IMG/VR virus record: IMGVR_UViG_3300045988_150584
DNA length: 64,000 nt
From: a virus
Direction: 5' to 3' (one strand)
The notes beneath the pieces are model-generated. The model ran no database searches and was not told the DNA's origin. It was given only the letters and a program-made list of their open reading frames with translations. A program made the translations under genes and the position numbers. Shown here one piece after another: positions 7,272-23,791 of this stretch. Position 1 is the stretch's first letter; every line of letters begins with the position of its first letter.

Positions 7272-7511
7272 ATGGCTAACAAGCGAAACGACAGCGGTTA
7301 CTTCTGGGTTGATAAGGCTTTGACCTGTAACGGCTGTAAGTTCCTCAACTTTTACAAGTGCGGTTGCCGACGCAACCAAGAGCCTGGAAAGGTTCGTCCG
7401 CTTTCGTCCTATACCAATGGCGATGATTATGTCGCGGTTCTCAAGCCGACGGACTGCGATTATCAGAAAGAGCAGAAGCCGCAGGTCAAGGATGATAAGG
7501 AGAACGAGTAA
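7272..7511 (+). CDS. hypothetical Cys-rich protein
   Basis: ORF track 7263..7511; ATG 7272 follows AAGGAG. Confidence 0.55.
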   Translation: MANKRNDSGYFWVDKALTCNGCKFLNFYKCGCRRNQEPGKVRPLSSYTNGDDYVAVLKPTDCDYQKEQKPQVKDDKENE

Positions 7512-7681
7512 TGCCCATATTTGTTCTTCTCGTGTTTGTGGGCGCAGCTCTTTTGTGGCTGCTACTATCCTTTGGGTTTATCCCTATCGGTAAGTTATCC
7601 AACAGACTTCTGAAAGATGCTTCCGATGCAATGTCAAAGGATGAAAAAGATGAAAAAATTGAAGATAAGGAAGAAAAATAA
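7511..7681 (+). CDS. small membrane protein (56 aa) upstream of the SPFH gene
   Basis: Hand translation MPIFVLLVFVGAALLWLLLSFGFIPIG...; ATG overlaps the preceding stop. Below the ORF-track size cutoff. Confidence 0.5.
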   Translation: MPIFVLLVFVGAALLWLLLSFGFIPIGKLSNRLLKDASDAMSKDEKDEKIEDKEEK

Positions 7682-7684
7682 CCT

Positions 7685-8584
7685 ATGAGAAAGAATGGTT
7701 TTGTTGGTGCTATCGTTTTGGCGATCATCATTTTTGGCGGCGTGATTCTCGGTTTTAGCTGCACATCGCGTGTCCCTACCGGTTATGTTGGAGTCGTTTA
7801 TAATATGAACGGCGGCGTTGATGGTGAGGTTCTGAGTCAGGGCTGGCATCTTGTAGCGCCTACAAAGAAAGTAACCACCTATTCTATCGGTTTGGAGCAG
7901 TCCTACCTTACAAGCGAAGAAAAGGGCGATTCTCCGAACGATGAGAGCTTTTCCATTCCGACGTCCGATGGCAAGACTGTCCGTGTAAATCTTGAGTTCT
8001 CTTACAGATTTGACGAAGAGCGTGTTGCTGAAACATTTACGACTTTCAAGGGCAAGTCTGGCGAACAGATCAAGGATACATTTATCAAGCCTAAGATTAT
8101 CGCTTGGACACAGGAAGTCTCCGCCAATTACCCAGTCACGGATATCTTCGGTGACAAGCGCACGGAGATCAACGCCGAGTTGGACACCTATTTGCGCGAC
8201 AAGTTTGATAAGTATGGCATTATTATCGACACGGTAAACTTCACCGATATCAGCGTAGACGATGAAACCGCCGCCGCGATTCAGAAGAAGGTCACTGCGC
8301 AGCAGGAACTTGAACTGGCTAATATCGAAGCTCAGACTGCCAAGGTTCAGGCCGAAAAGGATCGTCAGGTTGCTGAGATCAACGCTGAGAAGCAGATCAT
8401 TGATGCAAATGCAAAGGCTGAGGTAACGCGCATCGAAGCGGAGGCAGAAGCTCAGGCGAACCGTGAGATTGCAGCATCCCTTACCCCGAATCTGATTGAG
8501 AAGATCAAGTACGAGCGCTGGGACGGTGAGCTTCCTACCGTATCTGGTTCTGGAGCAATCGTCAGCATTGACGGCGTTGACTGA
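7685..8584 (+). CDS. SPFH/band-7 (prohibitin/HflC-like) membrane protein
   Basis: N-terminal TM, SPFH-type core and Ala/Glu-rich coiled coil. Confidence 0.85.
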   Translation: MRKNGFVGAIVLAIIIFGGVILGFSCTSRVPTGYVGVVYNMNGGVDGEVLSQGWHLVAPTKKVTTYSIGLEQSYLTSEEKGDSPNDESFSIPTSDGKTVRVNLEFSYRFDEERVAETFTTFKGKSGEQIKDTFIKPKIIAWTQEVSANYPVTDIFGDKRTEINAELDTYLRDKFDKYGIIIDTVNFTDISVDDETAAAIQKKVTAQQELELANIEAQTAKVQAEKDRQVAEINAEKQIIDANAKAEVTRIEAEAEAQANREIAASLTPNLIEKIKYERWDGELPTVSGSGAIVSIDGVD

Positions 8585-8597
8585 TCGGAGGCCGTGA

Positions 8598-8882: not shown

Positions 8883-8894
8883 TAGCTACTTGTA

Positions 8895-8950
8895 ACGACG
8901 CGAACAGCAATTTTCTTACATATATTTGGGTTATATCGTACATGCGTCGT
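8895..8950 (+). ncRNA. Stand-alone hairpin element R1 (ACGACGC...GCGTCGT) with ACAGCAAT just inside the stem
   Basis: 7-bp closing stem; interior starts GAACAGCAATTTTCTT. Same design as 9169-9225 and 10563-10626. Confidence 0.35.
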
Positions 8951-8978
8951 GTGAAATAAAACTTGGAGGAATGATGTC

Positions 8979-9158
8979 GTGAAGCTGAAGTTCAATGTTG
9001 GTGATCGTGTTTTTGATAAGAAGTACGGTCATGGTGTGGTTCAGAGAGTTGATGCTGGAAACAGCGAGTTCCCGTATCTTATCTTCTATGAAGATGGTAC
9101 GAAGATCTGGTATAAGGCAAAGGGTGTAACTCTTGCCCCTGCGGAACAGCAGGATTAA
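8979..9158 (+). CDS. hypothetical small protein (59 aa)
   Basis: Hand translation VKLKFNVGDRVFDKKYGHGVV...; GTG 8 nt after GGAGGA. Confidence 0.55.
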   Translation: MKLKFNVGDRVFDKKYGHGVVQRVDAGNSEFPYLIFYEDGTKIWYKAKGVTLAPAEQQD

Positions 9159-9168
9159 GTAAGTTAAA

Positions 9169-9225
9169 AAGACGCAAACAGCAATCTAATAAAATCAAAC
9201 TTGAAATTTGACAGGTAAGCGTCTT
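9169..9225 (+). ncRNA. Hairpin element R2 (AAGACGC...GCGTCTT) with ACAGCAAT
   Basis: 7-bp closing stem; interior starts AAACAGCAATCTAAT. Confidence 0.35.
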
Positions 9226-9237
9226 GTGGTGTGATAT

Positions 9238-9328
9238 GGAGTAGTAATCCTAATTGGTAAGGAAGTAGTTTGCTAAACTACCAGTAATCGGGAACGATGT
9301 GCAGGTTCGAGTCCTGTCTACTCTGCCA
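9238..9328 (+). tRNA. tRNA-Ser (anticodon GCU), class II, encoded CCA
   Basis: Hand fold: acceptor GGAGTAG/CTACTCT, anticodon arm GTAGT-TTGCTAA-ACTAC, long variable arm with ATCG/CGAT stem, T arm GCAGG-TTCGAGT-CCTGT. Confidence 0.85.
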
Positions 9329-9490: not shown

Positions 9491-9577
9491 GCTGATGTGA
9501 TGGAACTGGCATACATGGGGGACTTAAAATCCCCCGCCGATTGTGGATTATGGGTTCGACTCCCATCATCAGCACCA
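9491..9577 (+). tRNA. tRNA-Leu (anticodon UAA), class II, encoded CCA
   Basis: Acceptor GCTGATG/CATCAGC, anticodon arm GGGGA-CTTAAAA-TCCCC, 15-nt variable region, T arm ATGGG-TTCGACT-CCCAT. Confidence 0.85.
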
Positions 9578-9659
9578 GCCGTTGTGATGATCGGCTTTCA
9601 TCTCCTTCTTTGTGTGACGGTGGGACAGACCACTACTGCCGTGTAAGTGCGGCATAAAT

Positions 9660-9771
9660 GAGAGCGTCTGGATGACAGCTTTAAGGTGTATCGAACGGCG
9701 GACACCTACAGCAATGTTCTTTAAGAAAACTGGAATTTTTCTGCTTACGGGTTCGATTCCCGTAGCTCTCA
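9660..9771 (+). ncRNA. tRNA-like RNA, 112 nt, about 40 extra nt on the 5' side
   Basis: Acceptor GAGAGC(G)/(A)GCTCTC, T arm ACGGG-TTCGATT-CCCGT, candidate anticodon arm GAAAA-CTGGAAT-TTTTC, extra hairpin GGTGT-12 nt-ACACC and CTACAGCAAT motif. Confidence 0.5.
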
Positions 9772-9841
9772 AGAGCCGTTAAATAATCTTCTCGAACTGG
9801 TGAGCAATTCACAACTTCTCTGGGAAGATGTAATAAGAAAT

Positions 9842-9952
9842 GCAGAGGTAGCTCAGTCGGTAGAGCATCAGACAAAAAATGTGCTAAGCATTAGCGCTAA
9901 CAGCAATGTTAAAGGAATCCGAGTGTCGGAGGTTCAAGTCCTCCCCTCTGCG
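9842..9952 (+). tRNA. tRNA-shaped gene whose anticodon stem closes a 45-nt loop (9873-9917)
   Basis: Perfect acceptor GCAGAGG/CCTCTGC, D arm GCTC-AGTCGGTA-GAGC, T arm GGAGG-TTCAAGT-CCTCC, V loop GTGTC, anticodon stem TCAGA/TCCGA. Loop contains CGCTAACAGCAAT. Confidence 0.6.
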
Positions 9953-9959
9953 TCTATAT

Positions 9960-10031
9960 TCGTGCGTAACATCTGCGAAAGTACACCGTGGATGCGATTG
10001 GTATATGTCAGTTCGATTCTGACCGCACGAG
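9960..10031 (+). ncRNA. tRNA-like RNA, 72 nt, no D arm
   Basis: Acceptor TCGTGCG/CGCACGA and T arm GTCAG-TTCGATT-CTGAC; the middle folds as an 8-bp stem (CATCTGCG/CGTGGATG) with a 9-nt loop. Confidence 0.4.
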
Positions 10032-10110
10032 CCTATGCGGTGTCTCACTGAAATAAATGTGGTGTGGGTGAGTAAAATCAGGGCTGTTGAAGAACTTGTA
10101 TCGTAGCGCT

Positions 10111-10183: not shown

Positions 10184-10298
10184 GCCAGGGTAGCTCAATC
10201 GGTAGAGCGCGTAATAACGCGACTTGTTAAGCCGCTTGCAGCAAATTTCTTTTGGTCTGTTAAACCCGTGGTTGCAGGTTCGATTCCTGCCCCTGGCT
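10184..10298 (+). tRNA. tRNA-Asn (GUU) interrupted by a 42-nt insert (10212-10253) inside the 5' strand of the anticodon stem
   Basis: Removing 10212-10253 gives a 73-nt cloverleaf: GCCAGGG/CCCTGGC, GCTC/GAGC, CGGGT-CTGTTAA-ACCCG, TGGTT, GCAGG-TTCGATT-CCTGC. Confidence 0.65.
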
Positions 10299-10384: not shown

Positions 10385-10502
10385 ACGGCAGTGGTGAAGC
10401 GGTAACACAGCAGCCATACAAATGCGAAAAGTGGATTTTCGCTAACAGCTATTTCACAATCCAAGCTGCCAATCGTAGGTTCGATTCCTACCTGCCGTTC
10501 CA
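10385..10502 (+). tRNA. tRNA-shaped gene whose anticodon stem closes a 50-nt loop (10415-10464), encoded CCA
   Basis: Acceptor ACGGCAG/CTGCCGT, D arm GTG-AAGCGGTAA-CAC, anticodon stem GCAGC/GCTGC, V CAATC, T arm GTAGG-TTCGATT-CCTAC. Loop has hairpin GCGAAAA-GTGGA-TTTTCGC and CGCTAACAGCTAT. Confidence 0.6.
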
Positions 10503-10562
10503 CGGGTATAGAGTTGACTTTTCCGTTCAAACAGCCCCTTATAAAGTTGGTAGTAACGGTAT

Positions 10563-10626
10563 GAGACGCACACAGCAATTTGTAAGTAAAGTATTTAGCC
10601 TGATAAGCGGATTTCTTTTGCGTCTC
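10563..10626 (+). ncRNA. Hairpin element R3 (GAGACGCA...TGCGTCTC) with ACAGCAAT
   Basis: 8-bp closing stem; interior starts CACAGCAATTTG and ends ATTTCTTT. Confidence 0.35.
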
Positions 10627-10694
10627 GCCCCTCCTTTAAGACACAGACAGCATCGAATGTGAAATGGTGTCTTGAAGGCTATTTCAAACAAAAA

Positions 10695-10728: not shown

Positions 10729-12273
10729 ATGAATGGTTTTATGTCTGCTATGAAAAGCACTTTGAACGATGAGTTCAATGTTTCTGTTACCGAAAACGGT
10801 GCTGTTGGCTATCGTACTACCGGCAAGGAACTATTGGATCTCAACTTTGCCGTTGCATCTCTTCGTAAGGCATCTCCGAGCGATATTGCAAACCGCTTCG
10901 TCAGAGCGTTTTTCGAGGATAAGATTACGGCAATGAAATGGCTGTTCTTTGCGCGTGATGTTCGTGGTGGTCTTGGCGAGCGTCGTTTGTTCCGCATCGT
11001 GTTTCAGCGTATGGCGGAGGAAAATCCGGAATACATCATTCCGCTGATTTCCCTTGTGCCTGAGTATGGACGCTATGACGATTTGTGGTGTTTGCTCGAT
11101 ACAAAGCTTGCACCTAATGTGCTGAACATCATTGCGCAGCAGCTCCGCGATGACATTCAGAATTTGAGCGATGGCAATAGTATTTCTCTTCTCGCAAAGT
11201 GGCTTCCGTCTGCGAATGCTCATTCCGCTGACGCAAAGCGTTATGCTAAGCAGATCTACAAGTTTATGGGCATTTCTGAGCGCGACTACCGTAAGGTGCT
11301 GTCCAAGCTGCGTTCTAAGCTGGATATCGTGGAGAAGAAAATGTCCGAAAAGCGTTGGGATGAGATTGCGTATGAAGCTGTCCCGTCTCGTGCAAATCTG
11401 ATTTACAACTCCGCATTCCTTCGTAACGACGAAGATCGCCGCCGCGATTTCCTGTCCCGTTTGGAAAAGGGCGAAACGAAAATCAATGCGTCTACGCTTT
11501 TCCCGCATGACATTGTTGCAAAGTATAGCGATGGCTGGCGTGGCCTGAAGCCTACGGATAAAACACTGGAAGCTCTTTGGAACGCACTTCCCGATACCGT
11601 AAACGGATGCGGCAATACCATCGTCGTTGCGGATGGCAGCGGCAGTATGACCGTGAATGTCGGTGGCAGCAATGTTACCGCACTGGCTGTTGCAAATGCA
11701 CTTGCGATTTATTTCGCAGAGCGTTCCTCTGGTCAGTTCAAGGACAATTACATTACATTTTCTGAGCATCCTCAGCTCGTCGATTTGAGTAAGGGCAAGA
11801 ATCTCCGCGAGAAGATTCAGATTGCGCTTAAACACAGCGAGGTAGCAAACACAAATATCGAAGCGGTGTTTGACCTTATCTTGACTACGGCAAAGAAAAA
11901 CAACATGGGACAGAGCGATCTTCCTGCAAATATCCTTATTATCTCCGATATGGAGTTTGACTACTGCGCAACATCGAATGGTGGAAGCAGATATAATCGT
12001 GGTCGCGTTGATTCTCGTCTGTTTGACAAGATTGCAAAGCGCTATGAGGATGCTGGGTATAAACTGCCAAGGCTCGTGTTCTGGAACGTGAATAGCCGCA
12101 CGAATACCATCCCTATTAAGGAAAACGAGATGGGAGTTGCGCTTGTAAGCGGTTTTAGTCCGAACATCGCAAAGATGGTGATGAGTGGTCAAACTGATCC
12201 GTATGAGTGTCTGCTTGAAACGCTGAACTCTGATCGCTATAAGCCTATCGGTGACGCTCTGGAAAATCAGTAA
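10729..12273 (+). CDS. DUF2828-like alpha-repeat plus vWA (MIDAS) protein; architecture reminiscent of Ro60/TROVE-vWA
   Basis: ORF track 10672..12273; ATG 10729 after AAGGAGG. FFARDVRGGLGERRLF and YGRYDDLW segments; C-terminal vWA with DGSGS MIDAS motif. Confidence 0.8.
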   Translation: MNGFMSAMKSTLNDEFNVSVTENGAVGYRTTGKELLDLNFAVASLRKASPSDIANRFVRAFFEDKITAMKWLFFARDVRGGLGERRLFRIVFQRMAEENPEYIIPLISLVPEYGRYDDLWCLLDTKLAPNVLNIIAQQLRDDIQNLSDGNSISLLAKWLPSANAHSADAKRYAKQIYKFMGISERDYRKVLSKLRSKLDIVEKKMSEKRWDEIAYEAVPSRANLIYNSAFLRNDEDRRRDFLSRLEKGETKINASTLFPHDIVAKYSDGWRGLKPTDKTLEALWNALPDTVNGCGNTIVVADGSGSMTVNVGGSNVTALAVANALAIYFAERSSGQFKDNYITFSEHPQLVDLSKGKNLREKIQIALKHSEVANTNIEAVFDLILTTAKKNNMGQSDLPANILIISDMEFDYCATSNGGSRYNRGRVDSRLFDKIAKRYEDAGYKLPRLVFWNVNSRTNTIPIKENEMGVALVSGFSPNIAKMVMSGQTDPYECLLETLNSDRYKPIGDALENQ

Positions 12274-12656: not shown

Positions 12657-12967
12657 TGCCAGATGTTGTTATGACGAATCATAGTGTGAAGCGAACAAAA
12701 GAAAGAATTGGACTAAGCAAGAAAATCGCAGATAAGAACGCGCAGAGAGCGCTTGAATACGGTGTTACGCACTCTGAGGCAAAAGGTGGCTTATGTCGGT
12801 ATCTTGATAAACTGTATCTGTCGAATGGTAATGCAAATAATGTTCGCGTTTATCACAGATATGTATATCTCTTTCGTGGGAACACGCTTTTGACAATCAT
12901 TCCATTACCAAACAAATTCTATGCTCTGGCGGACAAACTTCAAAAGCAGAAAGGCGAAATAGAATGA
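12656..12967 (+). CDS. hypothetical protein
   Basis: ORF track 103 aa; start overlaps the preceding stop. Confidence 0.6.
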   Translation: MPDVVMTNHSVKRTKERIGLSKKIADKNAQRALEYGVTHSEAKGGLCRYLDKLYLSNGNANNVRVYHRYVYLFRGNTLLTIIPLPNKFYALADKLQKQKGEIE

Positions 12968-13920
12968 GAATTGTAAAAACACATACTGGAAAAATTTATG
13001 TTGATAAGGATAAGAAACTGGAATTTTTAACGGTTGGCGACTATGGCAAGGAAAACAATATTAAAGCAAGTTTTCTTGGTTTGAACAAAGAAATCAACGG
13101 TGTTCAACATCATACGGTTGACCTGGCGGATAAGTGGGTTGCTACTATCAGCACTCAGAAAGGTTGTCCGATGAATTGCCAGTTTTGTGATTGCCCGAAG
13201 TATGGATTTCACGGAAATGTATCTCGTGAGGAACTGGCTTATGAAATTGAGACAATTCTTGCAAACGAACGAGTAACACATACTAATCGTTTCAATGTTC
13301 ACTTTGCTCGCATGGGTGAGCCTACATTCAACGATGCCGTTCTTCCGTTTGCTGAATTTGATTTGAAGCCGCTGGTTAAGCGGTTTATTACGGCAGATAC
13401 AATTCATCCTGTTGTTTCAACTATGCTTCCGAAAGCAAATGCCAATTTGAAGTCATTCATCATGGAATGGTGTCGCATTAAGAACAGTGTGTACAGTGGA
13501 GAAGCTGGTCTGCAATTTAGCATCAATTCGACGAATCAGGCGCAGCGTAATGAACAGTTTAACGGAAAGAGCTTATCCTTATCAGAAATTTCAAGTCTCG
13601 CATCTAAGCTTCCTACGCCGGTCGGTAGAAAATACACATTGAATTTTGCGGTAACGGCTGACACGATTTTGGATGCGGTGGAGCTTGGGAAGCTGTTCGA
13701 TAAGGAAAAGTTTATCGTAAAAATTACGCCGATTCACCAGACAAATGCAGCCATTAAGAATGGATTTGATGTGACCACGGAATATACTGACTACGATGTT
13801 TACCGCAAGTTTGAAGATCCACTTGTTGCTGCTGGATGGGATGTCATTGTGTTCGTACCGAGCGAGGAAGAAGATAGCGACCGTATTACTTGCGGGAATG
13901 CCTTAATTTCAGATAAGTGA
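12964..13920 (+). CDS. radical-SAM enzyme resembling the RlmN/Cfr RNA-methylating family
   Basis: ISTQKGCPMNCQFCDCPKYGFHGN (CxxxCxxC), RMGEPTFN, C-terminal DRITCGNAL. Pattern recalled from RlmN (SSQVGC..C.FC, MGMGEP, AACGQL). Confidence 0.65.
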   Translation: MRIVKTHTGKIYVDKDKKLEFLTVGDYGKENNIKASFLGLNKEINGVQHHTVDLADKWVATISTQKGCPMNCQFCDCPKYGFHGNVSREELAYEIETILANERVTHTNRFNVHFARMGEPTFNDAVLPFAEFDLKPLVKRFITADTIHPVVSTMLPKANANLKSFIMEWCRIKNSVYSGEAGLQFSINSTNQAQRNEQFNGKSLSLSEISSLASKLPTPVGRKYTLNFAVTADTILDAVELGKLFDKEKFIVKITPIHQTNAAIKNGFDVTTEYTDYDVYRKFEDPLVAAGWDVIVFVPSEEEDSDRITCGNALISDK

Positions 13921-13928
13921 GGTGCAGG

Positions 13929-14336
13929 ATGTACAAGCACTACGAAAACATTACAAGAGAAGTTTTGGATACAATAAAGGTTGGAGATTTGGTCAGAGTA
14001 AACGATTGGACGAGTCCAATGCTTGTGAAAGCGGTATCTAAGAATTTCTTTGTGATGACTTGTAAGAAAGGCGAAGATACATATTACTCTGTGTGTTCAA
14101 AACTGCCGTGGGACGGTATTCGTCACAATGCTATGGTTGGCGGCATGTTCCATTGTGGATGTGATGATTGGATTTTCGGGACGCCGCTTGGAATTAGAGA
14201 CGAAAACATCTACCAGTTTAATGATCCGGAGTTAAATAGGTTGTATCTACAAGAGTTTGAGGATGGTAAAACGCACATTTCTGAACGAAATGGAGCTGCT
14301 ATCTATGATTTGTATGTAGAGCGCTGTGATGACTAA
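13929..14336 (+). CDS. hypothetical protein
   Basis: ORF track 13917..14336; ATG 13929. Confidence 0.6.
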   Translation: MYKHYENITREVLDTIKVGDLVRVNDWTSPMLVKAVSKNFFVMTCKKGEDTYYSVCSKLPWDGIRHNAMVGGMFHCGCDDWIFGTPLGIRDENIYQFNDPELNRLYLQEFEDGKTHISERNGAAIYDLYVERCDD

Positions 14337-18282: not shown

Positions 18283-18301
18283 TTTGTTTTGGAGGGGCAA
18301 A

Positions 18302-18913
18302 ATGATTATTGAAGACAAGCGATATGAGATTGATGAAGTTTTTCATATGATCGGAGAAGAGTATTTATCTCTTGACACGGATAAAGGGAAGAAAAACTCG
18401 GATATCGTAGTGGACGGGTTTCGCGTTCATCCGATTTCGCTCCGTTATATGACTTTCTATCAGAAAGGTACTGCATGTGCATATTGCGGAAAAGTCGGAA
18501 CGCATTTTAAGCTTTGTGGCGATCCAGATTCGCATCGTAGACATTTCAACTTGTTTGCAGATGACGGCTCTCTGATTACGAAGGATCATATTGTTCCTAA
18601 AAGCAAAAGCGGAAAAGATTGCGTTTCTAACATGCAGCCGATGTGCAAAGCGTGTAATACAGAGAAAGGTAACTATCATCCTGAAATTAAAGTTGATTAC
18701 ATCGCAGCATTAAATCAGAGAACGGGTAACACTTCCCTTTTTAGAACAATTAACAAAGCGGCATATCATGTTATTTCGGCGCATTTGCGTCCACCCAAGA
18801 AAGACAAGGATCTTATCATTAACACCTCGATCAATGCGGTACTTGCAATTCAGAATGCCATCAAAACTGGCTGTTCGTATTGCGGATACACATGGTCGAT
18901 TGAGCAGCGATAA
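18302..18913 (+). CDS. HNH endonuclease
   Basis: ITKDHIVPKSKSGKDCVSNMQPMCKACNTEKGN; ATG 18302 after GGAGGGG. Confidence 0.8.
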   Translation: MIIEDKRYEIDEVFHMIGEEYLSLDTDKGKKNSDIVVDGFRVHPISLRYMTFYQKGTACAYCGKVGTHFKLCGDPDSHRRHFNLFADDGSLITKDHIVPKSKSGKDCVSNMQPMCKACNTEKGNYHPEIKVDYIAALNQRTGNTSLFRTINKAAYHVISAHLRPPKKDKDLIINTSINAVLAIQNAIKTGCSYCGYTWSIEQR

Positions 18914-19476: not shown

Positions 19477-20037
19477 TTGAAATTTCGCAAAGATTTTGTG
19501 ACCAATTCCAGTAGCTCCAGCTATACATGTGATATTTGTGGCGCAACGGAATCTGGCTGGGATATTAGTTTAGAAGAGGCCGGCATGGTTGAATGCGTAA
19601 ATGGGCATACGATCTGCAATGATGAGCTGCTTGAGATTCCGCGCAAAGAGCTGATTAAAAAGATTCTGGAATCTGGTTACGAGACTGAAAGTGAAGAAGA
19701 GCTGAATAGTCAGCACGACGATGATTCACTTCTCGATATCTTCTGGGATCAGGCAGACAATCGTTATGCTGCTCCGGAAGAGTTTTGTCCGATTTGCCAG
19801 TTTATCGAGTATTCGCAGCACGATCTTGGAAAGTATCTTGAAAAAGAGTACAAGGTTTCCCGCAGTGATGTGTTCGCAAAGGTGAAAGCGGTGAATAAGC
19901 GCCGCAAGAAGCTATACGACAGCGAATATGTGACAGAGGTATGTAAGCAGTTCGATCTTAATCCTGTCGATATTGTAGCTGGTCTGAAGAAGAGATTCGT
20001 TACCTACCGTGCATTCAGCGACTATATTCGGAGGTAA
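19477..20037 (+). CDS. paralogue 2 of DFVTNSSSSS family, with CxxC pairs
   Basis: MKFRKDFVTNSSSSSY; TTG start after AAGGAGG. Confidence 0.65.
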   Translation: MKFRKDFVTNSSSSSYTCDICGATESGWDISLEEAGMVECVNGHTICNDELLEIPRKELIKKILESGYETESEEELNSQHDDDSLLDIFWDQADNRYAAPEEFCPICQFIEYSQHDLGKYLEKEYKVSRSDVFAKVKAVNKRRKKLYDSEYVTEVCKQFDLNPVDIVAGLKKRFVTYRAFSDYIRR

Positions 20038-20042
20038 TTGAA

Positions 20043-20477
20043 ATGAAAATTAGAGAAGATTTTGTAACGAATAGTAGTAGCTCAAGCTATGTTATCGCCT
20101 ATAAAGCGTCTCCAAACTTCGATGAAGAGACTATTCAGCGCTATCCGATTCTGAAAGGGTTTACCACTGTTTTAGAAAGCGTTTTGCTTGCCGCAAATGA
20201 TTATGGTGACACGACAGAGGGCGAGCAGATTAAAACCATTGAGGAACTGGATAAGTATTTTGTTGGATGCTATGGATATGGGGAGATCAATACGCTTCCA
20301 CGCATCTTGGATGATGACCATTATCTAAAAGAACATTATGATAAGTGTTCTAAGCTGTTAAACGATGGTTATAACATCGTTTTCAAGCAGGTCGATTATA
20401 ACGATAGCACTTTTGATTCTATCATTCGCAACCTGGCAAACACAGATGGCATTGTCCAGATTATTGCTGATGAATAA
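20043..20477 (+). CDS. paralogue 3 of DFVTNSSSSS family
   Basis: MKIREDFVTNSSSSSY. Confidence 0.65.
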   Translation: MKIREDFVTNSSSSSYVIAYKASPNFDEETIQRYPILKGFTTVLESVLLAANDYGDTTEGEQIKTIEELDKYFVGCYGYGEINTLPRILDDDHYLKEHYDKCSKLLNDGYNIVFKQVDYNDSTFDSIIRNLANTDGIVQIIADE

Positions 20478-20490
20478 TTGGAGGTAAACC

Positions 20491-21930
20491 ATGTACGCAG
20501 CATATGTAACTCGTATTAAGAATTTGCGCAAACATTCAAACGCGGATCGACTTCTCTGCGGTGAATGTTTTGGCAATACGGTAATTGTGGGCTTGGATAC
20601 AAAGCCAGAAGAGCTGGGTGTCTATTTCCCCGTAGATGGCAAGCTTGGCACTGAGTATGCGGTGAAGAACGACCTGCTTCGCCGTAAGGATGAGAACGGT
20701 AAGCCTGCTGGTGGTTATCTCGATCCTGAAAAGCGTAATATTAAGGCGTTGAAGCTTCGTGGCGAAAAGAGCGATGGCTTGTTTATGCCATTGTCCAGTT
20801 TGAGTGGGTTCACAGATATTGCAAAGCTCCGTGATGGCGATGTAATTACCATTTTGAATGGTGTTACAATTTGTGAGAAGTATATCCCCCATCGTAAGAA
20901 GAGTACCATTATGGTTGGGGGGGGTAGGACTCGTAAGCATCACGATCCTGTTGCTCCGCTCTTTGCGGAACATGCTGACACGGAACAGCTCGCATATAAC
21001 CTCAGCGCATTTCACCCAGGCGATCTTGTTGAGATTACTTTGAAAATGCACGGCACATCTCAGCGAACCGGATATCTACCAATGCTTAAAGGATATAAGA
21101 AGACATTGCTTGATAAGCTCCTACATCGCATTGGTTCTCCGATTTATAATTGGGGATATGTAACTGGTACTCGTCGTGTTGTCTTGGATGATTTTGACGG
21201 TGGCTTTTATGGTAGCAATGCTTTCCGTGAACAGCATAGCAAGGTTTTTGAAGGTAAGCTGCATAAGGGCGAAACCGTGTACTATGAAGTCGTTGGCTTT
21301 ACGCAAGACAAGCAGCCTATTATGGCATCTTGCGACAATAAAAAAGTCGGTGATAAGGAATTTGTTAAACAATACGGCGAAAAGACAGTGTTTAGCTATG
21401 GTTGCTATCCAGACGGTGTAAAGGAAGTAACAAATCCGAAAATTACACACGCAACAGTAATGATTGGCGATACCTCTTTTACAGCAAATGAGATTACGGA
21501 ATATGAATCTGCTCCGCAGTCTGATTTCTATGTGTATCGAATGACAATGACAAATGAGGATGGCGATGTTGTTGAATACACACCAGACTTTATGCGTTAT
21601 CGTTGTGAACAGATGGGCGTTAAGTGTGTTCCGCTATTTGCTCGATTCATTATTCCGGATTACATTCAGCTTCCTGATGCTGTTGGGTCTCCGATGGCTG
21701 TCAATGCTGGCGAATATGTCAAGGAAATTGCTGAAAACTTCTATGATGGTGCAGACCCGATTGGTAAGTCGCATGTCCGCGAGGGCGTTGTTTGCCGTAT
21801 CGTAAACCGCCCAAAGTTTACAGCATATAAGCACAAGAATTTTGCATTCAAGGTGCTTGAGGGAATTGTAAAGGATGTTGCGTCTGCTCCGGACATGGAA
21901 GAAGCGCAAGATGATGTAAGCGTTGCATAA
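20491..21930 (+). CDS. ATP-dependent RNA ligase (Rnl2/Rnl5-like, N-terminal OB-like domain)
   Basis: Ligase motif I KMHGTS, EGVVCRIV, YKHKNFAFK. In-frame G8 tract at 20917-20924. Confidence 0.75.
   Translation: MYAAYVTRIKNLRKHSNADRLLCGECFGNTVIVGLDTKPEELGVYFPVDGKLGTEYAVKNDLLRRKDENGKPAGGYLDPEKRNIKALKLRGEKSDGLFMPLSSLSGFTDIAKLRDGDVITILNGVTICEKYIPHRKKSTIMVGGGRTRKHHDPVAPLFAEHADTEQLAYNLSAFHPGDLVEITLKMHGTSQRTGYLPMLKGYKKTLLDKLLHRIGSPIYNWGYVTGTRRVVLDDFDGGFYGSNAFREQHSKVFEGKLHKGETVYYEVVGFTQDKQPIMASCDNKKVGDKEFVKQYGEKTVFSYGCYPDGVKEVTNPKITHATVMIGDTSFTANEITEYESAPQSDFYVYRMTMTNEDGDVVEYTPDFMRYRCEQMGVKCVPLFARFIIPDYIQLPDAVGSPMAVNAGEYVKEIAENFYDGADPIGKSHVREGVVCRIVNRPKFTAYKHKNFAFKVLEGIVKDVASAPDMEEAQDDVSVA
20917..20924 (+). 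repeat. G8 homopolymer (in frame, Gly-Gly-Gly)
   Basis: Counted in sequence. Confidence 0.95.
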
Positions 21931-22050
21931 CGACATTACGCATCTTATCCATCAATGTCGAACGGTGTGCTGGAATATATACGGATTTGGTAGCTCCAGC
22001 ACACTGCCGACATATTGTCAGAGATTGTATTTTGAAAGAGAGGTGCTGTG

Positions 22051-22872
22051 ATGAGTGACAGAGAAAAGATTATGAAGCGGCTTTCTGAACACCTCGAAGC
22101 AGTAAGAGACAAACACCCTGAGTGGGTTGGTATTTTTCTTCAAGGTTCACAAAACTACAACTTAGATTATGAGGGCAGCGATATTGATTCCAAGCTGATC
22201 GTCCTCCCTTCGTTTGAAGATTTTGTTTTGAACAAGAGACCGTATAGCTACACACACATCATGGAAAACGATGAACATGTAGATGTTAAGGATATTCGTC
22301 TGATGCTCGATTGCTTCAAAAAGCAGAATGTAAATTTTGTTGAGATTCTTTTTACCCCGTACCGTATCTTGAATCCAAAGTACGAAGCTTTGTTTCAGCC
22401 GATTCTTGATATTGCAGAGAGAGTCGGTCGATATAACAACTATGCTGCATTGAACTGCATGGTCGGAATGGCGCTTGAAAAGCAAAAGGCATTGTGCCAC
22501 CCATATCCTGCAACAAAAGACAAGATTGATAAGTACGGTTTCGACAGCAAACAGTATCATCATATCGAGCGTCTTTATGAGTTCATGCAGCGTTGGCTTA
22601 ATGGCGAGCCATATCGTGATTGCCTCATTTCTAAGCAGAGAGAACGTCTTAGAGAAATCAAGCTTTATATTAACTGCGATCTTACAACGGCGCAGGCCAA
22701 TTCGGACAGAATTGTATCTGAGATGAAGTCAATCAAGGACACTTATATGCAGCAGAATCCTGTCGTGATAGATCGTGAGGTTGATTCAGTTTTCAATAAG
22801 GTTTTGCTTGATTTATTTAAGTTTAATTTCCAGTGTGAGATTGGTAACGGCTCGCCTAATAAAAAGGAGTAA
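22051..22872 (+). CDS. Pol-beta-superfamily nucleotidyltransferase (RlaP-like, RNA-ligase-associated)
   Basis: GIFLQGSQNYNLDYEGSDIDSKLIV (GS...DxD). Confidence 0.7.
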   Translation: MSDREKIMKRLSEHLEAVRDKHPEWVGIFLQGSQNYNLDYEGSDIDSKLIVLPSFEDFVLNKRPYSYTHIMENDEHVDVKDIRLMLDCFKKQNVNFVEILFTPYRILNPKYEALFQPILDIAERVGRYNNYAALNCMVGMALEKQKALCHPYPATKDKIDKYGFDSKQYHHIERLYEFMQRWLNGEPYRDCLISKQRERLREIKLYINCDLTTAQANSDRIVSEMKSIKDTYMQQNPVVIDREVDSVFNKVLLDLFKFNFQCEIGNGSPNKKE

Positions 22873-22876
22873 GAAT

Positions 22877-23791
22877 ATGTCTATCTTTTTTATGATGGTA
22901 GGTCTTCCGTACAGCGGAAAATCTGTTTATGCGGAGGGGCTGCGAGAGAAGTTCGGTGCAGAGATTCATTCCAGCGATGCAATTCGAGCAGAGATCCTTG
23001 GAGATGTACAGGATCAGACAAACAATCAGATTGTTTTTGATACTCTGCACAAGCGAGTAATTTCTGATTTGTCTGCTGGTAAAAATGTAATTTACGATGC
23101 GACGAATATCAATTACAAGCGGCGTATTGATATGCTGAATCGCTTGTCGAAGGTGAAGTGTCAGAAAGTCTGTATCGTTATGGCGACACCTTTTCACGAA
23201 TGTGAAGAGCGTAGCAAGCATCGTGAGCGGGTTGTCCCACACGAGGTTCTTGTGCGTATGTATAAGAATTTCTGGCTTCCGTATTGGTATGAGGGGTGGG
23301 ACGCAATCGAGCTTGTTTATCCAGATAATTTTGAGCCGTACAGTGTAAGTGATTTATTTAATCGTGATGGAGGGCTGAATAGCTTTGAGCAGGACAATCC
23401 ACATCATACTTTCACGGTTGGGCATCATTGTATCGCTACATATGGGCTTGTTTCTGATGGAAGCACAGAGCTTCAGGAGGCTGCTCTTCTTCATGATATC
23501 GGAAAGCCTTTCACAAAAAGCTTTGTGAATAGCAAGGGCGAAACAACAGAGATTGCTCATTATTATGAACATCAGCATGTTTCCGCCTATGATAGCTTAT
23601 TCTACTCAAATCCGAGTTTGAATCGGCTGTATATCGCAAATATCATCCAGTGGCATATGCGTCCGTTTGAGCTTGAACGAGACCCCCATTCTGGCAAAGC
23701 GCAGAAGCGGTTCAAAAAGCTTGTCGGCAATAAGCTTTATTCAGATGTGATGAAGCTTCATGCCGCTGATATCGAAGCAAAAGGAACTTGA
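22877..23791 (+). CDS. polynucleotide kinase (P-loop) fused to HD phosphohydrolase
   Basis: MMVGLPYSGKS Walker A, DATNINYKRR, then HH...LLHDIGKP. ATG 22877 after AAGGAG (track ORF starts 22775). Confidence 0.8.
   Translation: MSIFFMMVGLPYSGKSVYAEGLREKFGAEIHSSDAIRAEILGDVQDQTNNQIVFDTLHKRVISDLSAGKNVIYDATNINYKRRIDMLNRLSKVKCQKVCIVMATPFHECEERSKHRERVVPHEVLVRMYKNFWLPYWYEGWDAIELVYPDNFEPYSVSDLFNRDGGLNSFEQDNPHHTFTVGHHCIATYGLVSDGSTELQEAALLHDIGKPFTKSFVNSKGETTEIAHYYEHQHVSAYDSLFYSNPSLNRLYIANIIQWHMRPFELERDPHSGKAQKRFKKLVGNKLYSDVMKLHAADIEAKGT

What the first reader, a model, noticed from the sequence alone, without database searches (positions are those of the whole stretch)
7511..23791. Phage RNA-maintenance island: tRNA-like array flanked by SPFH, a Ro-like vWA protein, an RlmN-like enzyme and an Rnl/RlaP/PNK-HD repair set
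Seen, from ORF-track motifs:
- SPFH protein (7685-8584)
- DUF2828-like alpha-repeat plus vWA/MIDAS protein immediately after the RNA array (10729-12273)
- RlmN/Cfr-like radical-SAM enzyme (12964-13920)
- HNH nuclease
- RNA ligase with KMHGTS (20491-21930)
- Pol-beta nucleotidyltransferase (22051-22872)
- P-loop kinase plus HD (22877-23791)

Established: T4 Pnkp/Rnl repairs tRNA cut by anticodon nucleases. Ro60/Rsr is an alpha-repeat ring plus vWA that binds tRNA-like Y RNAs, and it is often encoded near RNA ligases.

Inference: the whole block may be one counter-defence system that supplies, protects, modifies and re-ligates tRNA. The vWA protein and the aberrant tRNA-like RNAs would form a Ro/Y-RNA-like RNP. 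The link between DUF2828 and TROVE rests on my reading of the architecture, not on a search.
Basis: partly seen in the sequence, partly recalled or inferred. Interest (0 to 1): 0.65.

Follow-up and report, generated by a model that had tools for sequence, protein, structure and literature searches.

The report
Phage Ro-like protein with cognate small RNAs
A gut phage encodes a ring-shaped Ro60-like RNA-binding protein beside a cluster of small RNAs, some tRNA-shaped, that share a signature found next to this protein in very different phages; this points to an undescribed phage version of the Ro/Y-RNA particle, sitting near an ordinary RNA-repair gene set.

Summary
All listed genes exist and carry the stated domains. 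An AlphaFold model of the DUF2828/DUF7788 protein (10729-12273) matches only Ro60/TROVE structures over its full length, and its MIDAS motif is complete. The 12964-13920 radical-SAM enzyme is closest in fold to RlmN.

The main result concerns the RNA array (8.9-10.7 kb). It holds 2 normal tRNAs and at least 8 small RNAs that share one module: a helix strand (GRCRC), two bases, then single-stranded ACAGCAA. Four are 40-68 nt stem-loops. Three are full cloverleaves with the module in place of the anticodon loop. No Rfam 15 family matches it.

The module lies next to DUF2828 genes in every lineage I examined, with hosts in Bacillus, Enterococcus, Staphylococcus, Mycobacterium, E. coli and Campylobacter. 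In bacterial assemblies, 11 of 12 helix-bearing copies lie beside a DUF2828 gene, against 0 of 108 helix-less matches.

Best reading: a Ro60-like/Y-RNA-like particle, next to a separate ligase/RlaP/Pnk-HD repair cassette. The "single 16-kb system" idea is only partly supported, because the RlmN-like and HNH genes are lineage-specific insertions. This is a new variant of a known kind. RNA binding is not shown.

The parts
7685..8584 (+). SPFH/Band-7 protein, membrane-anchored, directly upstream of the RNA array
   Evidence: Pfam Band_7, E 2e-26. N-terminal hydrophobic helix. It keeps its position next to the RNA array and DUF2828 gene even where it has diverged: L017 at 39% identity, and L006 with a 519-aa Band_7.
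8893..8952 (+). Stem-loop RNA element 1 (type B): closing helix ACGACGC/GCGUCGU, then GA-ACAGCAA at 8904-8910
   Evidence: Covariance model R1, E 3e-7. The fold keeps the closing helix.
9167..9227 (+). Stem-loop RNA element 2 (type B): AAGACGC/GCGUCUU, ACAGCAA at 9178-9184
   Evidence: R1, E 2e-9. Conserved in L001 and L003.
9238..9328 (+). Canonical tRNA-Ser(GCU) with encoded CCA
   Evidence: ARAGORN. Rfam tRNA, 49 bits.
9491..9577 (+). Canonical tRNA-Leu(UAA) with encoded CCA
   Evidence: ARAGORN. Rfam tRNA, 53 bits.
9657..9775 (+). tRNA-like variant: acceptor-like stem, reduced D region, hairpin GGUGU/ACACC followed by ACAGCAA (9708-9714), and a T-arm
   Evidence: Sequence reading. Fold z-score -2.6. 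Conserved in L001, L003 and L017.
9842..9952 (+). tRNA-shaped RNA A1 (type A): full acceptor, D and T arms; the anticodon loop is replaced by AAUG-hairpin-UA-ACAGCAA (9900-9906)
   Evidence: Rfam tRNA, 52.5 bits with a 44-nt insert. Not called by ARAGORN. Covariation support. Fold z-score -4.3.
9955..10036 (+). Minimal tRNA-like element (acceptor-like stem, one stem-loop, T-arm) without ACAGCAA
   Evidence: Sequence and fold. 83% identical to L003 9490-9554.
10184..10298 (+). tRNA-shaped RNA A2 (type A), module with GCAGCAA at 10238-10244
   Evidence: Rfam tRNA, 48.4 bits with a 55-nt insert. Orthologues in L001, L003, L006 and L017.
10385..10499 (+). tRNA-shaped RNA A3 (type A), module with ACAGCUA at 10445-10451; followed by an encoded CCA
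   Evidence: Rfam tRNA, 48.6 bits with a 49-nt insert. Orthologues in L001 and L003.
10561..10628 (+). Stem-loop RNA element 3 (type B): GAGACGC/GCGUCUC, ACAGCAA at 10572-10578
   Evidence: R1, E 1e-6. Fold z-score -2.5.
10636..10675 (+). Stem-loop RNA element 4 (short type B): AAGACAC/GUGUCUU, ACAGCAU at 10647-10653
   Evidence: R1, E 1.5e-3, and not part of the training set. Fold.
10729..12273 (+). Ro60-like protein: DUF2828 helical-repeat part plus DUF7788 vWA domain with a complete MIDAS
   Evidence: Pfam. phrog_850 'RNA-binding protein', E 5e-141. AlphaFold2 model, pLDDT 72.6. Foldseek top 8 hits are all Ro60. MIDAS residues invariant.
12964..13920 (+). Divergent RlmN-like radical-SAM enzyme; a lineage-specific insertion, not part of the conserved core
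   Evidence: NCBIfam RlmN, E 4e-9 but 36 bits against a cutoff of 290. Foldseek 6fz6 and 4pl2 on top. Absent in L001 and L003. Different contexts elsewhere.
18284..18913 (+). HNH endonuclease, probably a homing insertion
   Evidence: Pfam HNH. Absent at this position in L001 and L003.
20491..21930 (+). ATP-dependent RNA ligase: N-terminal OB domain plus nucleotidyltransferase domain (Rnl5-like order)
   Evidence: phrog_968, E 9e-64. TIGR02306 DRB0094 N-terminal part, E 4e-8. PDB Naegleria RNA ligase N-terminus and T4 Rnl2. Motifs I, III, IV and V.
22051..22872 (+). Pol-beta nucleotidyltransferase, RlaP-like, next to the ligase
   Evidence: GS...DID motif. phrog_388, E 6e-11. Pfam RlaP is the best family but below threshold, E 0.025. 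A 40%-identical homologue lies 1-4 kb from DUF2828 in L019-L022.
22877..23791 (+). Polynucleotide kinase fused to an HD phosphohydrolase (end-healing enzyme)
   Evidence: Pfam AAA_33, E 3e-18, and HD, E 5.5e-6. PDB Clostridium thermocellum Pnkp kinase domain, E 1e-11. GLPYSGKS and HD motifs.

Best explanation
The region holds two neighbouring but separable modules in the accessory arm of a temperate phage of gut Clostridia.

Module 1 (about 7.7-12.3 kb) is a Ro60-like ribonucleoprotein locus. It encodes a ring-plus-vWA protein of the DUF2828/DUF7788 family and an array of cognate small RNAs.

The RNAs share one recognition module:
- a short G+C-rich helix whose one strand reads (A)AGRCRC;
- two variable bases;
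- the single-stranded heptamer ACAGCAA.

The module comes in three forms:
- bare 40-70 nt stem-loops;
- in other phages, forms that enclose a tRNA-like domain in the T-arm / stem-loop / D-arm order of YrlA;
- in this window, a circularly permuted form in which the tRNA acceptor stem is open and the module caps the anticodon arm.

Inferred mechanism, by analogy with Ro60/Y RNA: the protein binds the helix-ACAGCAA module. The tRNA-shaped part then acts as a tether, or as a decoy, for enzymes that handle tRNA. Candidates are host PNPase, RNase P/Z and the CCA-adding enzyme, or the phage's own repair enzymes.

Module 2 (20.5-23.8 kb) is a standard heal-and-seal cassette:
- Pnk-HD converts 5'-OH and 2',3'-phosphate ends;
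- the RlaP-like transferase could restore a lost nucleotide;
- the ligase seals the break.

Together with the two phage tRNAs, these modules would keep the tRNA pool working when host nucleases attack it.

Shown: the folds, motifs, RNA structures and the gene-RNA association. Inferred: protein-RNA binding, co-operation between the two modules, and the counter-defence role.
For: Protein:
- The top 8 Foldseek PDB matches are all Ro60/TROVE, over 515-572 aligned columns. They include Thermus phage phiLo Ro60 (E 1e-7, TM 0.53/0.58), Xenopus and human Ro60, and Deinococcus Rsr. The next matches are isolated vWA domains.
- The MIDAS motif is invariant.

RNA structure:
- For the tRNA-shaped form, 90.7% of cells are paired, against 39-47% in slid controls. 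21 of 28 pairs have compensatory changes, and 0 of 500 shuffles reach the observed values.
- For the stem-loop form, 81 of 151 ACAGCAA sites have a perfect 6-bp Watson-Crick partner 20-170 nt downstream, against 6.9% of random positions (p 2e-49). The pairs covary.
- Covariance model R1 finds 4 hits in the 64-kb window, all in the array and all on the + strand.
- R1 finds 23 hits in 137 kb of DUF2828 loci.
- R1 finds 0 hits in 861 kb of random viral DNA.
- R1 finds 0 hits in 49 kb of phage T5 that holds its tRNA array.

Gene-RNA association:
- Elements lie within about 1 kb of the DUF2828 gene, on the same strand, in phages of Bacillus (Tsamsa), Enterococcus, Mycobacterium (Faith1), Staphylococcus (BE22), E. 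coli (momo, FelixO1-like) and Campylobacter, and in gut clades at 40-76% protein identity.
- Faith1 has no tRNA gene within 7 kb of the elements, and BE22 has only one, 1.4 kb away.
- Reverse search in IMG/VR: 22 of 120 exact-motif loci carry a DUF2828 homologue, all co-oriented. A shuffled motif gives 0 of 120 (p 2e-7).
- Reverse search in bacterial assemblies: 11 of 12 helix-bearing motif hits have DUF2828 within the 8-kb piece, against 0 of 108 helix-less hits (p 1e-14).

Precedent: Ro60 genes, including phage ones, are flanked by their Y RNAs. Those RNAs have a 5'/3' stem, a conserved motif on the 5' side of a large loop, and often a tRNA-like domain (PMC4201824, PMC12135203).

Repair cassette:
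- Ligase, nucleotidyltransferase and Pnk-HD are adjacent and conserved in L001.
- RlaP-like and ligase genes lie near DUF2828 again in a 40%-identity lineage, in a different order.
- Cluster L mycobacteriophages combine a Ro-like protein, an RNA ligase of this family and a polynucleotide kinase (PMC13148394).
Against: - No binding or expression data exist.
- Ro60 similarity is seen only at fold level, from a model of moderate confidence (pLDDT 72.6). There is no Pfam TROVE hit, and a profile search of PDB sequences finds no Ro60.
- The RNAs lack the canonical Ro-binding GNCGAA/CGAA motif and score far below the Rfam YrlA threshold.
- In IMG/VR, 29 helix-bearing elements lie in pieces with no visible DUF2828 gene. 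Nearly all of those pieces are large tRNA arrays. An RNA function tied to tRNA operons rather than to the protein is therefore not excluded. Those pieces are only fragments of 40-190 kb contigs.
- The ligase family and DUF2828 have largely different distributions among GenBank phages.
Confidence: 0.6

Rival explanations
1. The helix-ACAGCAA elements are cis-acting parts of phage tRNA operons, such as processing or punctuation signals read by a universal host RNase, or spacer RNAs. DUF2828 genes merely tend to sit in or beside tRNA arrays.
For: - Elements often begin right after a tRNA 3' end (Enterococcus phage, Tsamsa).
- 29 helix-bearing elements in IMG/VR pieces have no DUF2828 gene in view, and 25 of those 27 pieces contain tRNA genes, mostly 6-28 each.
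- In the window they flank tRNAs and tRNA-like genes.
Against: - Three elements directly follow the DUF2828 gene in Mycobacterium phage Faith1, where no tRNA gene lies within 7 kb. Three more directly follow it in Staphylococcus phage BE22, where only a single tRNA-Pro lies nearby, about 1.4 kb downstream.
- There are none in the 25-tRNA array of T5, which lacks a DUF2828 gene in the 49 kb examined.
- 11 of 12 helix-bearing elements in bacterial assemblies are beside DUF2828.
- The heptamer is invariant across phages of four bacterial phyla. That fits a phage-encoded reader better than host enzymes.
Confidence: 0.2
2. The three long tRNA-like genes are intron-containing tRNA genes. The ligase and Pnk-HD splice them, as in yeast Trl1-type tRNA splicing.
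For: The inserts lie in the anticodon arm. A 5'-kinase, a 2',3'-phosphoesterase and a ligase are encoded 10 kb away.
Against: - Removing the insert leaves no conserved 7-nt anticodon loop. U33 and the anticodon are absent or not conserved between orthologues.
- The insert is itself a conserved, covarying structure that also occurs free-standing and inside YrlA-like RNAs in other phages.
- No splicing endonuclease is evident.
- ARAGORN does not call these genes.
Confidence: 0.04
3. One reading: the whole 7.5-23.8 kb block, including SPFH, the RlmN-like enzyme and the HNH, is one co-evolved counter-defence system that supplies, protects, modifies and re-ligates tRNA.
For: - All genes are co-directional.
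- SPFH, the RNA array, DUF2828 and, further on, ligase/NT/Pnk-HD keep their order in relatives at 74-76% identity.
- SPFH genes occur next to RNA-repair or tRNA genes elsewhere: the P. aeruginosa rtc locus (PMC13086221) and T5 gene T5.080 beside tRNA-Arg and stable RNAX.
Against: - Co-direction holds for the whole 0.6-54 kb arm.
- The RlmN-like block and the HNH are present or absent between close relatives.
- The RlmN-like gene has unrelated neighbours elsewhere.
- Intervening genes (SPASM radical-SAM, LemA, small ORFs) have no RNA link.
- SPFH is not found next to DUF2828 outside this clade. It has a different phage distribution: 645 records, 275 of them Staphylococcus.
Confidence: 0.1

Closest known systems
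Ro60 (Rsr/TROVE2) with Y RNAs, especially bacterial and phage YrlA-type RNAs and Thermus phage phiLo phiRo60-Yrl1/Yrl2
   Same: - Helical-repeat ring plus vWA/MIDAS protein.
- Several small RNAs encoded directly beside the gene on the same strand.
- RNAs built from a 5'/3' stem with a conserved motif on the 5' side of a large loop.
- Some RNAs carry a tRNA-like domain with T-arm, stem-loop and D-arm in the YrlA order (PMC4201824, PMC12135203).
   Different: - The protein belongs to Pfam DUF2828/DUF7788, not TROVE, and sequence searches do not connect the two.
- The RNA motif is ACAGCAA after a GRCRC helix strand, not GNCGAA/CGAA.
- The Rfam YrlA model does not recognise the RNAs.
- The window's three tRNA-shaped RNAs have normal tRNA topology, with open acceptor ends and the module in the anticodon arm. 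I found no description of such a form in the YrlA and phage Ro60 papers I could read.
Phage and bacterial RNA heal-and-seal systems (T4 Pnkp/Rnl1; bacterial Pnkp/Hen1; Rnl-RlaP-kinase/phosphatase cassettes surveyed in jumbo phages, PMC7824862)
   Same: Adjacent ATP-dependent RNA ligase, ligase-associated Pol-beta nucleotidyltransferase, and a kinase fused to a phosphoesterase.
   Different: - The ligase has an N-terminal OB domain like DraRnl/Naegleria Rnl (Rnl5) and a longer nucleotidyltransferase domain.
- The phosphatase is an HD domain rather than HAD or calcineurin-like.
- Activities and substrates are untested.
RlmN/Cfr radical-SAM RNA methyl synthases
   Same: Closest fold. CxxxCxxC cluster motif. 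A C-terminal invariant Cys in a CG(N/Q) context like RlmN Cys355.
   Different: - 318 aa, with a small beta-sheet N-terminus in place of the RlmN N-terminal domain.
- The Cys118 position holds an invariant Thr.
- It scores 36 bits against a 290-bit family cutoff.
- It is not a stable neighbour of the RNA genes.
SPFH/Band-7 proteins linked to RNA-repair loci. This rests on my memory of the abstract of Burroughs and Aravind, NAR 2016, which pairs SPFH/Band-7 with 'a novel tRNA-like molecule'. The paper could not be read here.
   Same: An SPFH gene directly flanks an array of tRNA-like RNAs. SPFH genes also sit in the P. aeruginosa rtc locus (PMC13086221) and beside tRNA and stable-RNA genes in T5.
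   Different: I could not check whether the tRNA-like RNA of that paper is the ACAGCAA class. The SPFH protein here is membrane-anchored, and it is found next to DUF2828 only in this clade.

Membership tests
Ro60 / TROVE proteins | Helical-repeat (HEAT-like) ring followed by a C-terminal vWA domain | tested here: met
   The Foldseek PDB top 8 hits are all Ro60, over 515-572 aligned columns, E 1e-7 to 2e-5, TM 0.35-0.58. The model has pLDDT 72.6 and pTM 0.61.
Ro60 / TROVE proteins | MIDAS motif DxSxS...T...D in the vWA domain | tested here: met
   D302, S304, S306, T375 and D407 are invariant in 31 sequences.
Ro60 / TROVE proteins | Sequence membership (Pfam TROVE, or significant similarity to solved Ro60 sequences) | tested here: not met
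   Pfam gives DUF2828, DUF7788 and VWA_2. vWA_Ro60 scores only E 0.044, below its cutoff, and there is no TROVE hit. phmmer and a profile search of PDB sequences find no Ro60.
Ro60 / TROVE proteins | Binds Y RNA on the outer surface and misfolded RNA ends in the central hole | not testable with these tools
   Needs biochemistry or a structure of the complex.
Y RNA / YrlA (Rfam RF02553) | Encoded next to the Ro gene, often in several copies | tested here: met
   Elements lie within about 1 kb of DUF2828 in every lineage examined, on the same strand.
Y RNA / YrlA (Rfam RF02553) | 5'/3' stem enclosing a large loop, with a conserved motif on its 5' side | tested here: met
   Closing helix with covariation. 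81 of 151 sites against 6.9% of random positions. R1 hits.
Y RNA / YrlA (Rfam RF02553) | Conserved Ro-binding motif GNCGAA(N)G / CGAA | tested here: not met
   The invariant motif is ACAGCAA. The motif definition comes from PMC4201824 and PMC12135203.
Y RNA / YrlA (Rfam RF02553) | tRNA-like domain (T-arm, acceptor-like stem-loop, D-arm) | tested here: met
   Present in the long forms of other phages and, permuted, in three window RNAs. Absent from the short stem-loops.
Y RNA / YrlA (Rfam RF02553) | Reaches the Rfam gathering score | tested here: not met
   The best window hit is 20.4 bits against 69, E 0.39. No hit at E <= 0.1 in the Tsamsa, VRE9_1 or Faith1 loci.
tRNA | Cloverleaf with acceptor, D and T arms | tested here: met
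   Rfam tRNA, 48-53 bits. Covariation in all five helices.
tRNA | 5-bp anticodon stem closing a 7-nt loop with U33 and an anticodon | tested here: not met
   For 9842-9952, 10184-10298 and 10385-10499 the loop is replaced by 44-55 nt. No anticodon is conserved between orthologues, and ARAGORN does not call them. The two genes at 9238 and 9491 do meet this feature.
RlmN/Cfr radical-SAM methyl synthases | Radical-SAM core with CxxxCxxC, and RlmN as the nearest fold | tested here: met
   C68, C72 and C75. Foldseek 6fz6, E 1e-7, and E. coli RlmN 4pl2, E 6e-7, are about 1000-fold better than other radical-SAM enzymes.
RlmN/Cfr radical-SAM methyl synthases | Methyl-carrying C-terminal Cys (E. coli Cys355) | tested here: inconclusive
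   Invariant C310 lies in DRITCGNAL, which resembles RlmN ...AACGQL. I matched the motifs by eye and did not superpose residues.
RlmN/Cfr radical-SAM methyl synthases | Resolving Cys seven residues before the cluster motif (E. coli Cys118) | tested here: not met
   The aligned position is Thr61, invariant in 30 homologues.
RlmN/Cfr radical-SAM methyl synthases | Reaches the curated family score | tested here: not met
   TIGR00048, 35.8 bits against a cutoff of 290. The match covers only residues 52-130.
ATP-dependent RNA ligases, Rnl5-like (DraRnl / Naegleria Rnl) | Nucleotidyltransferase motifs I (KxxG), III, IV and V | tested here: met
   KMHGTS, YYEVVGF, EGVVCR and YKHK, read in the translation. 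phrog_968 'RNA ligase', E 9e-64.
ATP-dependent RNA ligases, Rnl5-like (DraRnl / Naegleria Rnl) | N-terminal OB domain before the nucleotidyltransferase domain, with family-level score | tested here: inconclusive
   Pfam PHA02142 OB, E 0.002. TIGR02306, E 4e-8 but 33 bits against 151. Naegleria ligase N-terminus, E 0.03-0.07. The domain order fits, but the scores are below the cutoffs.
RlaP (RNA-ligase-associated Pol-beta nucleotidyltransferase) | Pol-beta GS...DxD active site, and a gene next to an RNA ligase | tested here: met
   GSQNYNLDYEGSDID. The gene starts 120 nt after the ligase stop.
RlaP (RNA-ligase-associated Pol-beta nucleotidyltransferase) | Pfam PF10127 at the gathering score | tested here: inconclusive
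   RlaP is the best Pfam family, but at E 0.025 and 14.7 bits against 23.
Polynucleotide kinase-phosphatase end-healing enzymes | P-loop 5'-OH kinase domain related to Pnkp | tested here: met
   Clostridium thermocellum Pnkp kinase domain, E 1e-11. AAA_33, E 3e-18. TIGR04075, E 5e-14, partial match.
Polynucleotide kinase-phosphatase end-healing enzymes | Phosphoesterase domain | tested here: met
   Pfam HD, 27.1 bits against a cutoff of 22. HD motif LLHDIGKP. Activity on 2',3'-phosphate ends is not tested.
SPFH / Band-7 | Band_7 domain with an N-terminal membrane anchor | tested here: met
   Pfam Band_7, 93.5 bits. Hydrophobic residues 6-24.

The most novel reading that the evidence does not exclude
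DUF2828/DUF7788 proteins are a second, sequence-distinct branch of Ro60-like proteins, present in more than 700 sequenced phages. They have their own undescribed class of Y-like RNAs, defined by a GRCRC helix strand plus ACAGCAA.

This class is modular:
- bare stem-loops;
- YrlA-like forms;
- circularly permuted forms that are complete tRNA cloverleaves with free acceptor ends.

The cloverleaf forms could be processed by RNase P/Z, receive CCA, and perhaps be charged or serve as decoy substrates for anticodon nucleases. They would physically link a Ro-type RNA-surveillance ring to the tRNA pool during infection.
Probability: 0.45. Interest if true: 0.75.

Novelty: new variant of a known kind. 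Interest (0 to 1): 0.62.

Why it matters
Ro60/Y-RNA particles are conserved from bacteria to humans and are a major autoantigen, yet what the tRNA-like part of bacterial Y RNAs does is still open.

A parallel system with a different protein family and a different RNA signature would give independent test cases in tractable phages:
- Felix O1-like coliphages;
- Listeria and Staphylococcus phages;
- cluster L mycobacteriophages, where the Ro-like gene is toxic when overexpressed (PMC13148394).

The permuted, tRNA-topology RNAs would show that the module and the tRNA mimic can be wired in several ways, which constrains models of how the particle works.

On the practical side, dozens of phage annotations currently place short hypothetical ORFs over these RNAs. 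A covariance model for the class would correct that.

Tried and rejected
- Megablast of the block against GenBank phages: no match.
- Rfam in permissive mode on the array: only tRNA hits, a 20-bit YrlA hit and a chance plastid hit. The module is therefore not an Rfam 15 family.
- Sequence searches of the DUF2828 protein and of a 31-sequence profile against PDB: no Ro60.
- Sigma-70 promoter and terminator scan: fewer sites than in shuffles, so uninformative.
- ACAGCAA as a promoter: rejected. It is confined to the array within the window. It is shared by phages of Firmicutes, Actinobacteria, Proteobacteria and Campylobacterota. It is always attached to a covarying helix.
- ACA-GCAA-UGU as a GNRA-tetraloop hairpin: it forms only in A1 and its orthologue. 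The 3' flank is not conserved.
- tRNA-intron reading: rejected (see rivals).
- RlmN-like gene as a fixed partner of the RNA module: rejected on synteny.
- SPFH next to DUF2828 outside this clade: not found in the flanks available.
- Negative control on T5: no elements in its tRNA region. I checked only 49 kb of T5 for DUF2828.
- Burroughs and Aravind 2016 (NAR 44:8525) could not be retrieved by DOI, PMC id or PubMed id. I therefore could not check whether its 'novel tRNA-like molecule' overlaps this class.
- The supplement of Weinberg 2017 on the drum RNA is not held.

Full report
**The observation.**
- SPFH, 7685-8584: Band_7, E 2e-26.
- A DUF2828 + DUF7788 protein with a weak VWA_2 hit, 10729-12273.
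- A radical-SAM protein, 12964-13920.
- An RNA ligase, 20491-21930.
- A kinase-HD fusion, 22877-23791.
- An HNH endonuclease, 18284-18913.
- A Pol-beta nucleotidyltransferase, 22051-22872, with a GS...DID site.

The ligase carries KMHGTS and the other nucleotidyltransferase motifs. The kinase matches the kinase domain of Clostridium thermocellum Pnkp at E 1e-11.

Between SPFH and the DUF2828 gene lies 1.85 kb with one small ORF (8979-9158). ARAGORN finds only tRNA-Ser(GCU) and tRNA-Leu(UAA) there. The Rfam tRNA model finds three more genes of 111-115 nt, each with 44-55 extra bases in the anticodon arm.

**Origin of the window.** It matches IMG/VR contig UViG_3300045988_167762. The closest named relative of the DUF2828 protein is from a Lachnospiraceae MAG. 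The window also encodes a serine recombinase and DNA-replication genes, so it is a temperate phage of gut Clostridia.

**The vWA protein.**
- Homologues are abundant: 711 GenBank phage records from hosts as different as Bacillus, Listeria, Staphylococcus, Enterococcus, Mycobacterium, Escherichia, Salmonella, Vibrio and Campylobacter.
- Annotations include 'DUF2828', 'vWFA protein', 'RNA-binding protein' and, in mycobacteriophages, 'Ro-like RNA binding protein'.
- An AlphaFold2 model from 31 homologues has pLDDT 72.6 and pTM 0.61.
- I compared it with the PDB. The eight best matches are all Ro60: Thermus phage phiLo (E 1e-7, TM 0.53/0.58), Xenopus, human, and Deinococcus Rsr. All are aligned over the full length. 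Only isolated vWA domains follow.
- The MIDAS residues are invariant.
- Sequence methods do not see the link. There is no Pfam TROVE hit, vWA_Ro60 scores E 0.044, and a PDB profile search finds no Ro60.

The protein is therefore Ro60-like in architecture but is not a member of the TROVE sequence family.

**The RNAs.** Eleven tRNA-like genes from the window and three related contigs align into a cloverleaf. The anticodon loop is replaced by AAUG, a 7-bp hairpin, two bases, and ACAGCAA.
- With the structure written out, 90.7% of cells pair, against 39-47% when partners are slid.
- 21 of 28 pairs show compensatory changes.
- No shuffle out of 500 reaches the observed values.

The heptamer, preceded by CGC-N-A, also occurs outside the tRNA-like genes. 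In the window it is confined to 8.9-10.6 kb, on the + strand. In those copies the 6-7 bases before the heptamer pair with a complement 35-60 nt downstream, giving stem-loops of 40-68 nt.

Across DUF2828 loci:
- 81 of 151 distinct ACAGCAA sites have a perfect 6-bp Watson-Crick partner 20-170 nt downstream, against 6.9% of random positions (p 2e-49).
- The pairs covary: GACGC/GCGUC, GACAC/GUGUC, GGCAC/GUGCC, GGCUC/GAGCC and GGUCAC/GUGACC.
- The consensus is A-AAGACAC-NN-ACAGCAA ... GUGUCUU-G.

A covariance model of 40 short forms (R1) gives:
- four hits in the 64-kb window, all in the array, one of them not in the training set;
- 23 hits in 137 kb of DUF2828 loci;
- none in 861 kb of random viral DNA;
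- none in the 49 kb of phage T5 that holds its 25 tRNAs.

**Topologies.** Longer forms in other phages enclose a tRNA-like domain.
- Often the order is T-arm, stem-loop, D-arm. Examples are Tsamsa L024 5246, L086 8477, and Faith1 L026 8527-8660. This is the arrangement described for YrlA (PMC4201824).
- In both that form and the window's form, the D-arm leads to the helix strand that lacks the heptamer, and the heptamer leads on to the T-arm.
- The window's tRNA-shaped RNAs are therefore circular permutations: the acceptor stem is open and the protein-module helix is capped by a loop. This is my reading of the sequences, not a computed result.
- A third arrangement, with the D-arm before the T-arm inside the closing helix, also exists.

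**Association with the protein.** Elements lie within about 1 kb of the DUF2828 gene, on the same strand, in:
- gut-phage relatives at 40-76% protein identity;
- Bacillus phage Tsamsa;
- Enterococcus phage VRE9_1;
- Mycobacterium phage Faith1, with three in the 370-nt gap after gp55;
- Staphylococcus phage BE22, with three directly after the gene;
- the Felix O1-like coliphage momo, with four elements by sequence, one of which reaches the R1 threshold;
- Campylobacter phage QDYZ.

No tRNA gene lies within 7 kb of the Faith1 elements, and BE22 has only a single tRNA-Pro about 1.4 kb away.

Searching from the RNA side:
- The exact 18-nt motif was found in 120 IMG/VR stretches. 22 of these encode a DUF2828 homologue (25-75% identity), always co-oriented.
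- A shuffled motif gave 0 of 120 (p 2e-7).
- In bacterial and archaeal assemblies most exact matches are chance. The 12 that also have the closing helix include 11 with a DUF2828 gene in the same 8-kb piece, against 0 of 108 without the helix (p 1e-14).

The caveat is that in IMG/VR 29 helix-bearing elements lie in pieces with no DUF2828 gene. These pieces are almost all dense tRNA arrays cut from much longer contigs. A tie to tRNA operons as such cannot yet be excluded.

**Comparison with Y RNAs.** Known Ro60 partners, including the two Yrl RNAs of Thermus phage phiLo, have a 5'/3' stem and a large loop that carries a CGAA or GNCGAA motif. They are encoded next to the Ro60 gene (PMC4201824, PMC12135203). 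The present RNAs share the plan and the gene neighbourhood, but they have a different motif and are invisible to the Rfam YrlA model. I found no paper in the searchable library that links DUF2828 to such RNAs. The review most likely to bear on this, Burroughs and Aravind 2016, could not be read.

**The RlmN-like enzyme.**
- Sequence evidence is weak and local: TIGR00048 scores 36 bits against 290, and E. coli RlmN scores E 4e-4.
- The model (pLDDT 74, pTM 0.80) is closest to two RlmN-family structures, at E 1e-7 and 6e-7, about a thousand-fold better than other radical-SAM enzymes.
- An invariant C-terminal cysteine sits in a CGN context like RlmN Cys355. The Cys118 position is an invariant threonine.
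- The gene and its four neighbours (12964-15480) are missing from syntenic relatives L001 and L003.
- Homologues elsewhere sit next to an HU-like gene or NAD-salvage genes.

It is a mobile accessory gene. The HNH gene is likewise an insertion.

**The repair cassette and the block as a whole.**
- Ligase, nucleotidyltransferase and Pnk-HD are contiguous and are kept together in L001.
- In a lineage whose DUF2828 protein is only 40% identical, an RlaP-like gene lies 1-4 kb from DUF2828 in two different arrangements, and a ligase gene follows in one of them.
- Cluster L mycobacteriophages combine the Ro-like protein, this ligase family and a polynucleotide kinase (PMC13148394).

That suggests a loose functional link. 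Against a tight one:
- most DUF2828 phages (Felix O1-like, Listeria, Campylobacter and others) lack this ligase family;
- about fifteen unrelated genes lie between the two modules here.

SPFH keeps its place next to the RNA array even where it has diverged to 39% identity or been replaced by a 519-aa version. SPFH genes also occur in the P. aeruginosa rtc locus (PMC13086221) and beside tRNA-Arg and a stable RNA in T5. However, SPFH is not found beside DUF2828 in other clades, and its phage distribution is different.

**Verdict.** It is too broad in calling the whole block one system. What is new is the RNA class and its permuted tRNA-shaped members, which I rate as a new variant of the Ro60/Y-RNA kind. 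Binding, expression and any role against host tRNA nucleases remain to be shown.

Noticed in passing
window 59225-63480, minus strand: A reverse transcriptase gene (59225-60406, RVT_1), an RT-2 RNA (Rfam RF03077, 137 bits, 60399-60624) and a 695-aa protein ending in DUF6273 (61393-63480). Together they look like a diversity-generating retroelement cassette near the tail and lysis genes.
   Followed up: partly
L006 14248-14356: A drum RNA (Rfam RF02958, 88 bits) sits inside the tRNA array between the DUF2828 gene and a 519-aa Band_7 gene of a related phage. Weinberg 2017 says drum RNAs associate with a nearby protein gene, but the supplement that names it is not held.
   Followed up: partly
L274 (phage T5, NC_005859) 19792-20739, minus strand: T5 gene T5.080, annotated 'lipoprotein', is an SPFH homologue of the window protein (26% identity, E 4e-9). 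It lies directly beside tRNA-Arg and the 719-nt stable RNAX. T5 also has several annotated 'tRNA-like stable RNAs with unknown functions', none of which matches the ACAGCAA model.
   Followed up: partly
L273 (Staphylococcus phage BE22) 6516-6605: The annotated hypothetical CDS BE22_0031 overlaps an ACAGCAA stem-loop element (R1, E 2e-8). It is probably a mis-called ORF over an RNA gene. Similar tiny ORFs cover the tRNA region of Enterococcus phage VRE9_1.
   Followed up: no
window 10385-10502: The tRNA-shaped RNA A3 is followed by an encoded U-CCA, like the two canonical tRNAs. A1 and A2 are not. This could mean that A3 matures with a tRNA-like 3' end.
   Followed up: no
window 9955-10036: A conserved minimal tRNA-like element (acceptor-like stem, one stem-loop, T-arm) lacks ACAGCAA but contains UGCGAAAG, which is close to the canonical Y-RNA GNCGAA motif.
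   Followed up: no
window 15495-18056: A SPASM-domain radical-SAM protein (359 aa), a LemA-family protein (183 aa) and a phrog_3886 protein keep their order in all relatives examined. They lie between the Ro-like gene and the ligase, and their function is unknown.
   Followed up: no
window 23788-24648 and 25164-26078: Two PAPS-reductase-family genes lie directly after the Pnk-HD gene. They may be nucleic-acid modification enzymes.
   Followed up: no
window 14730-15110: A 126-aa protein with a sigma-70 region 4 helix-turn-helix (E 8e-9) lies in the same insertion block as the RlmN-like gene.
   Followed up: no
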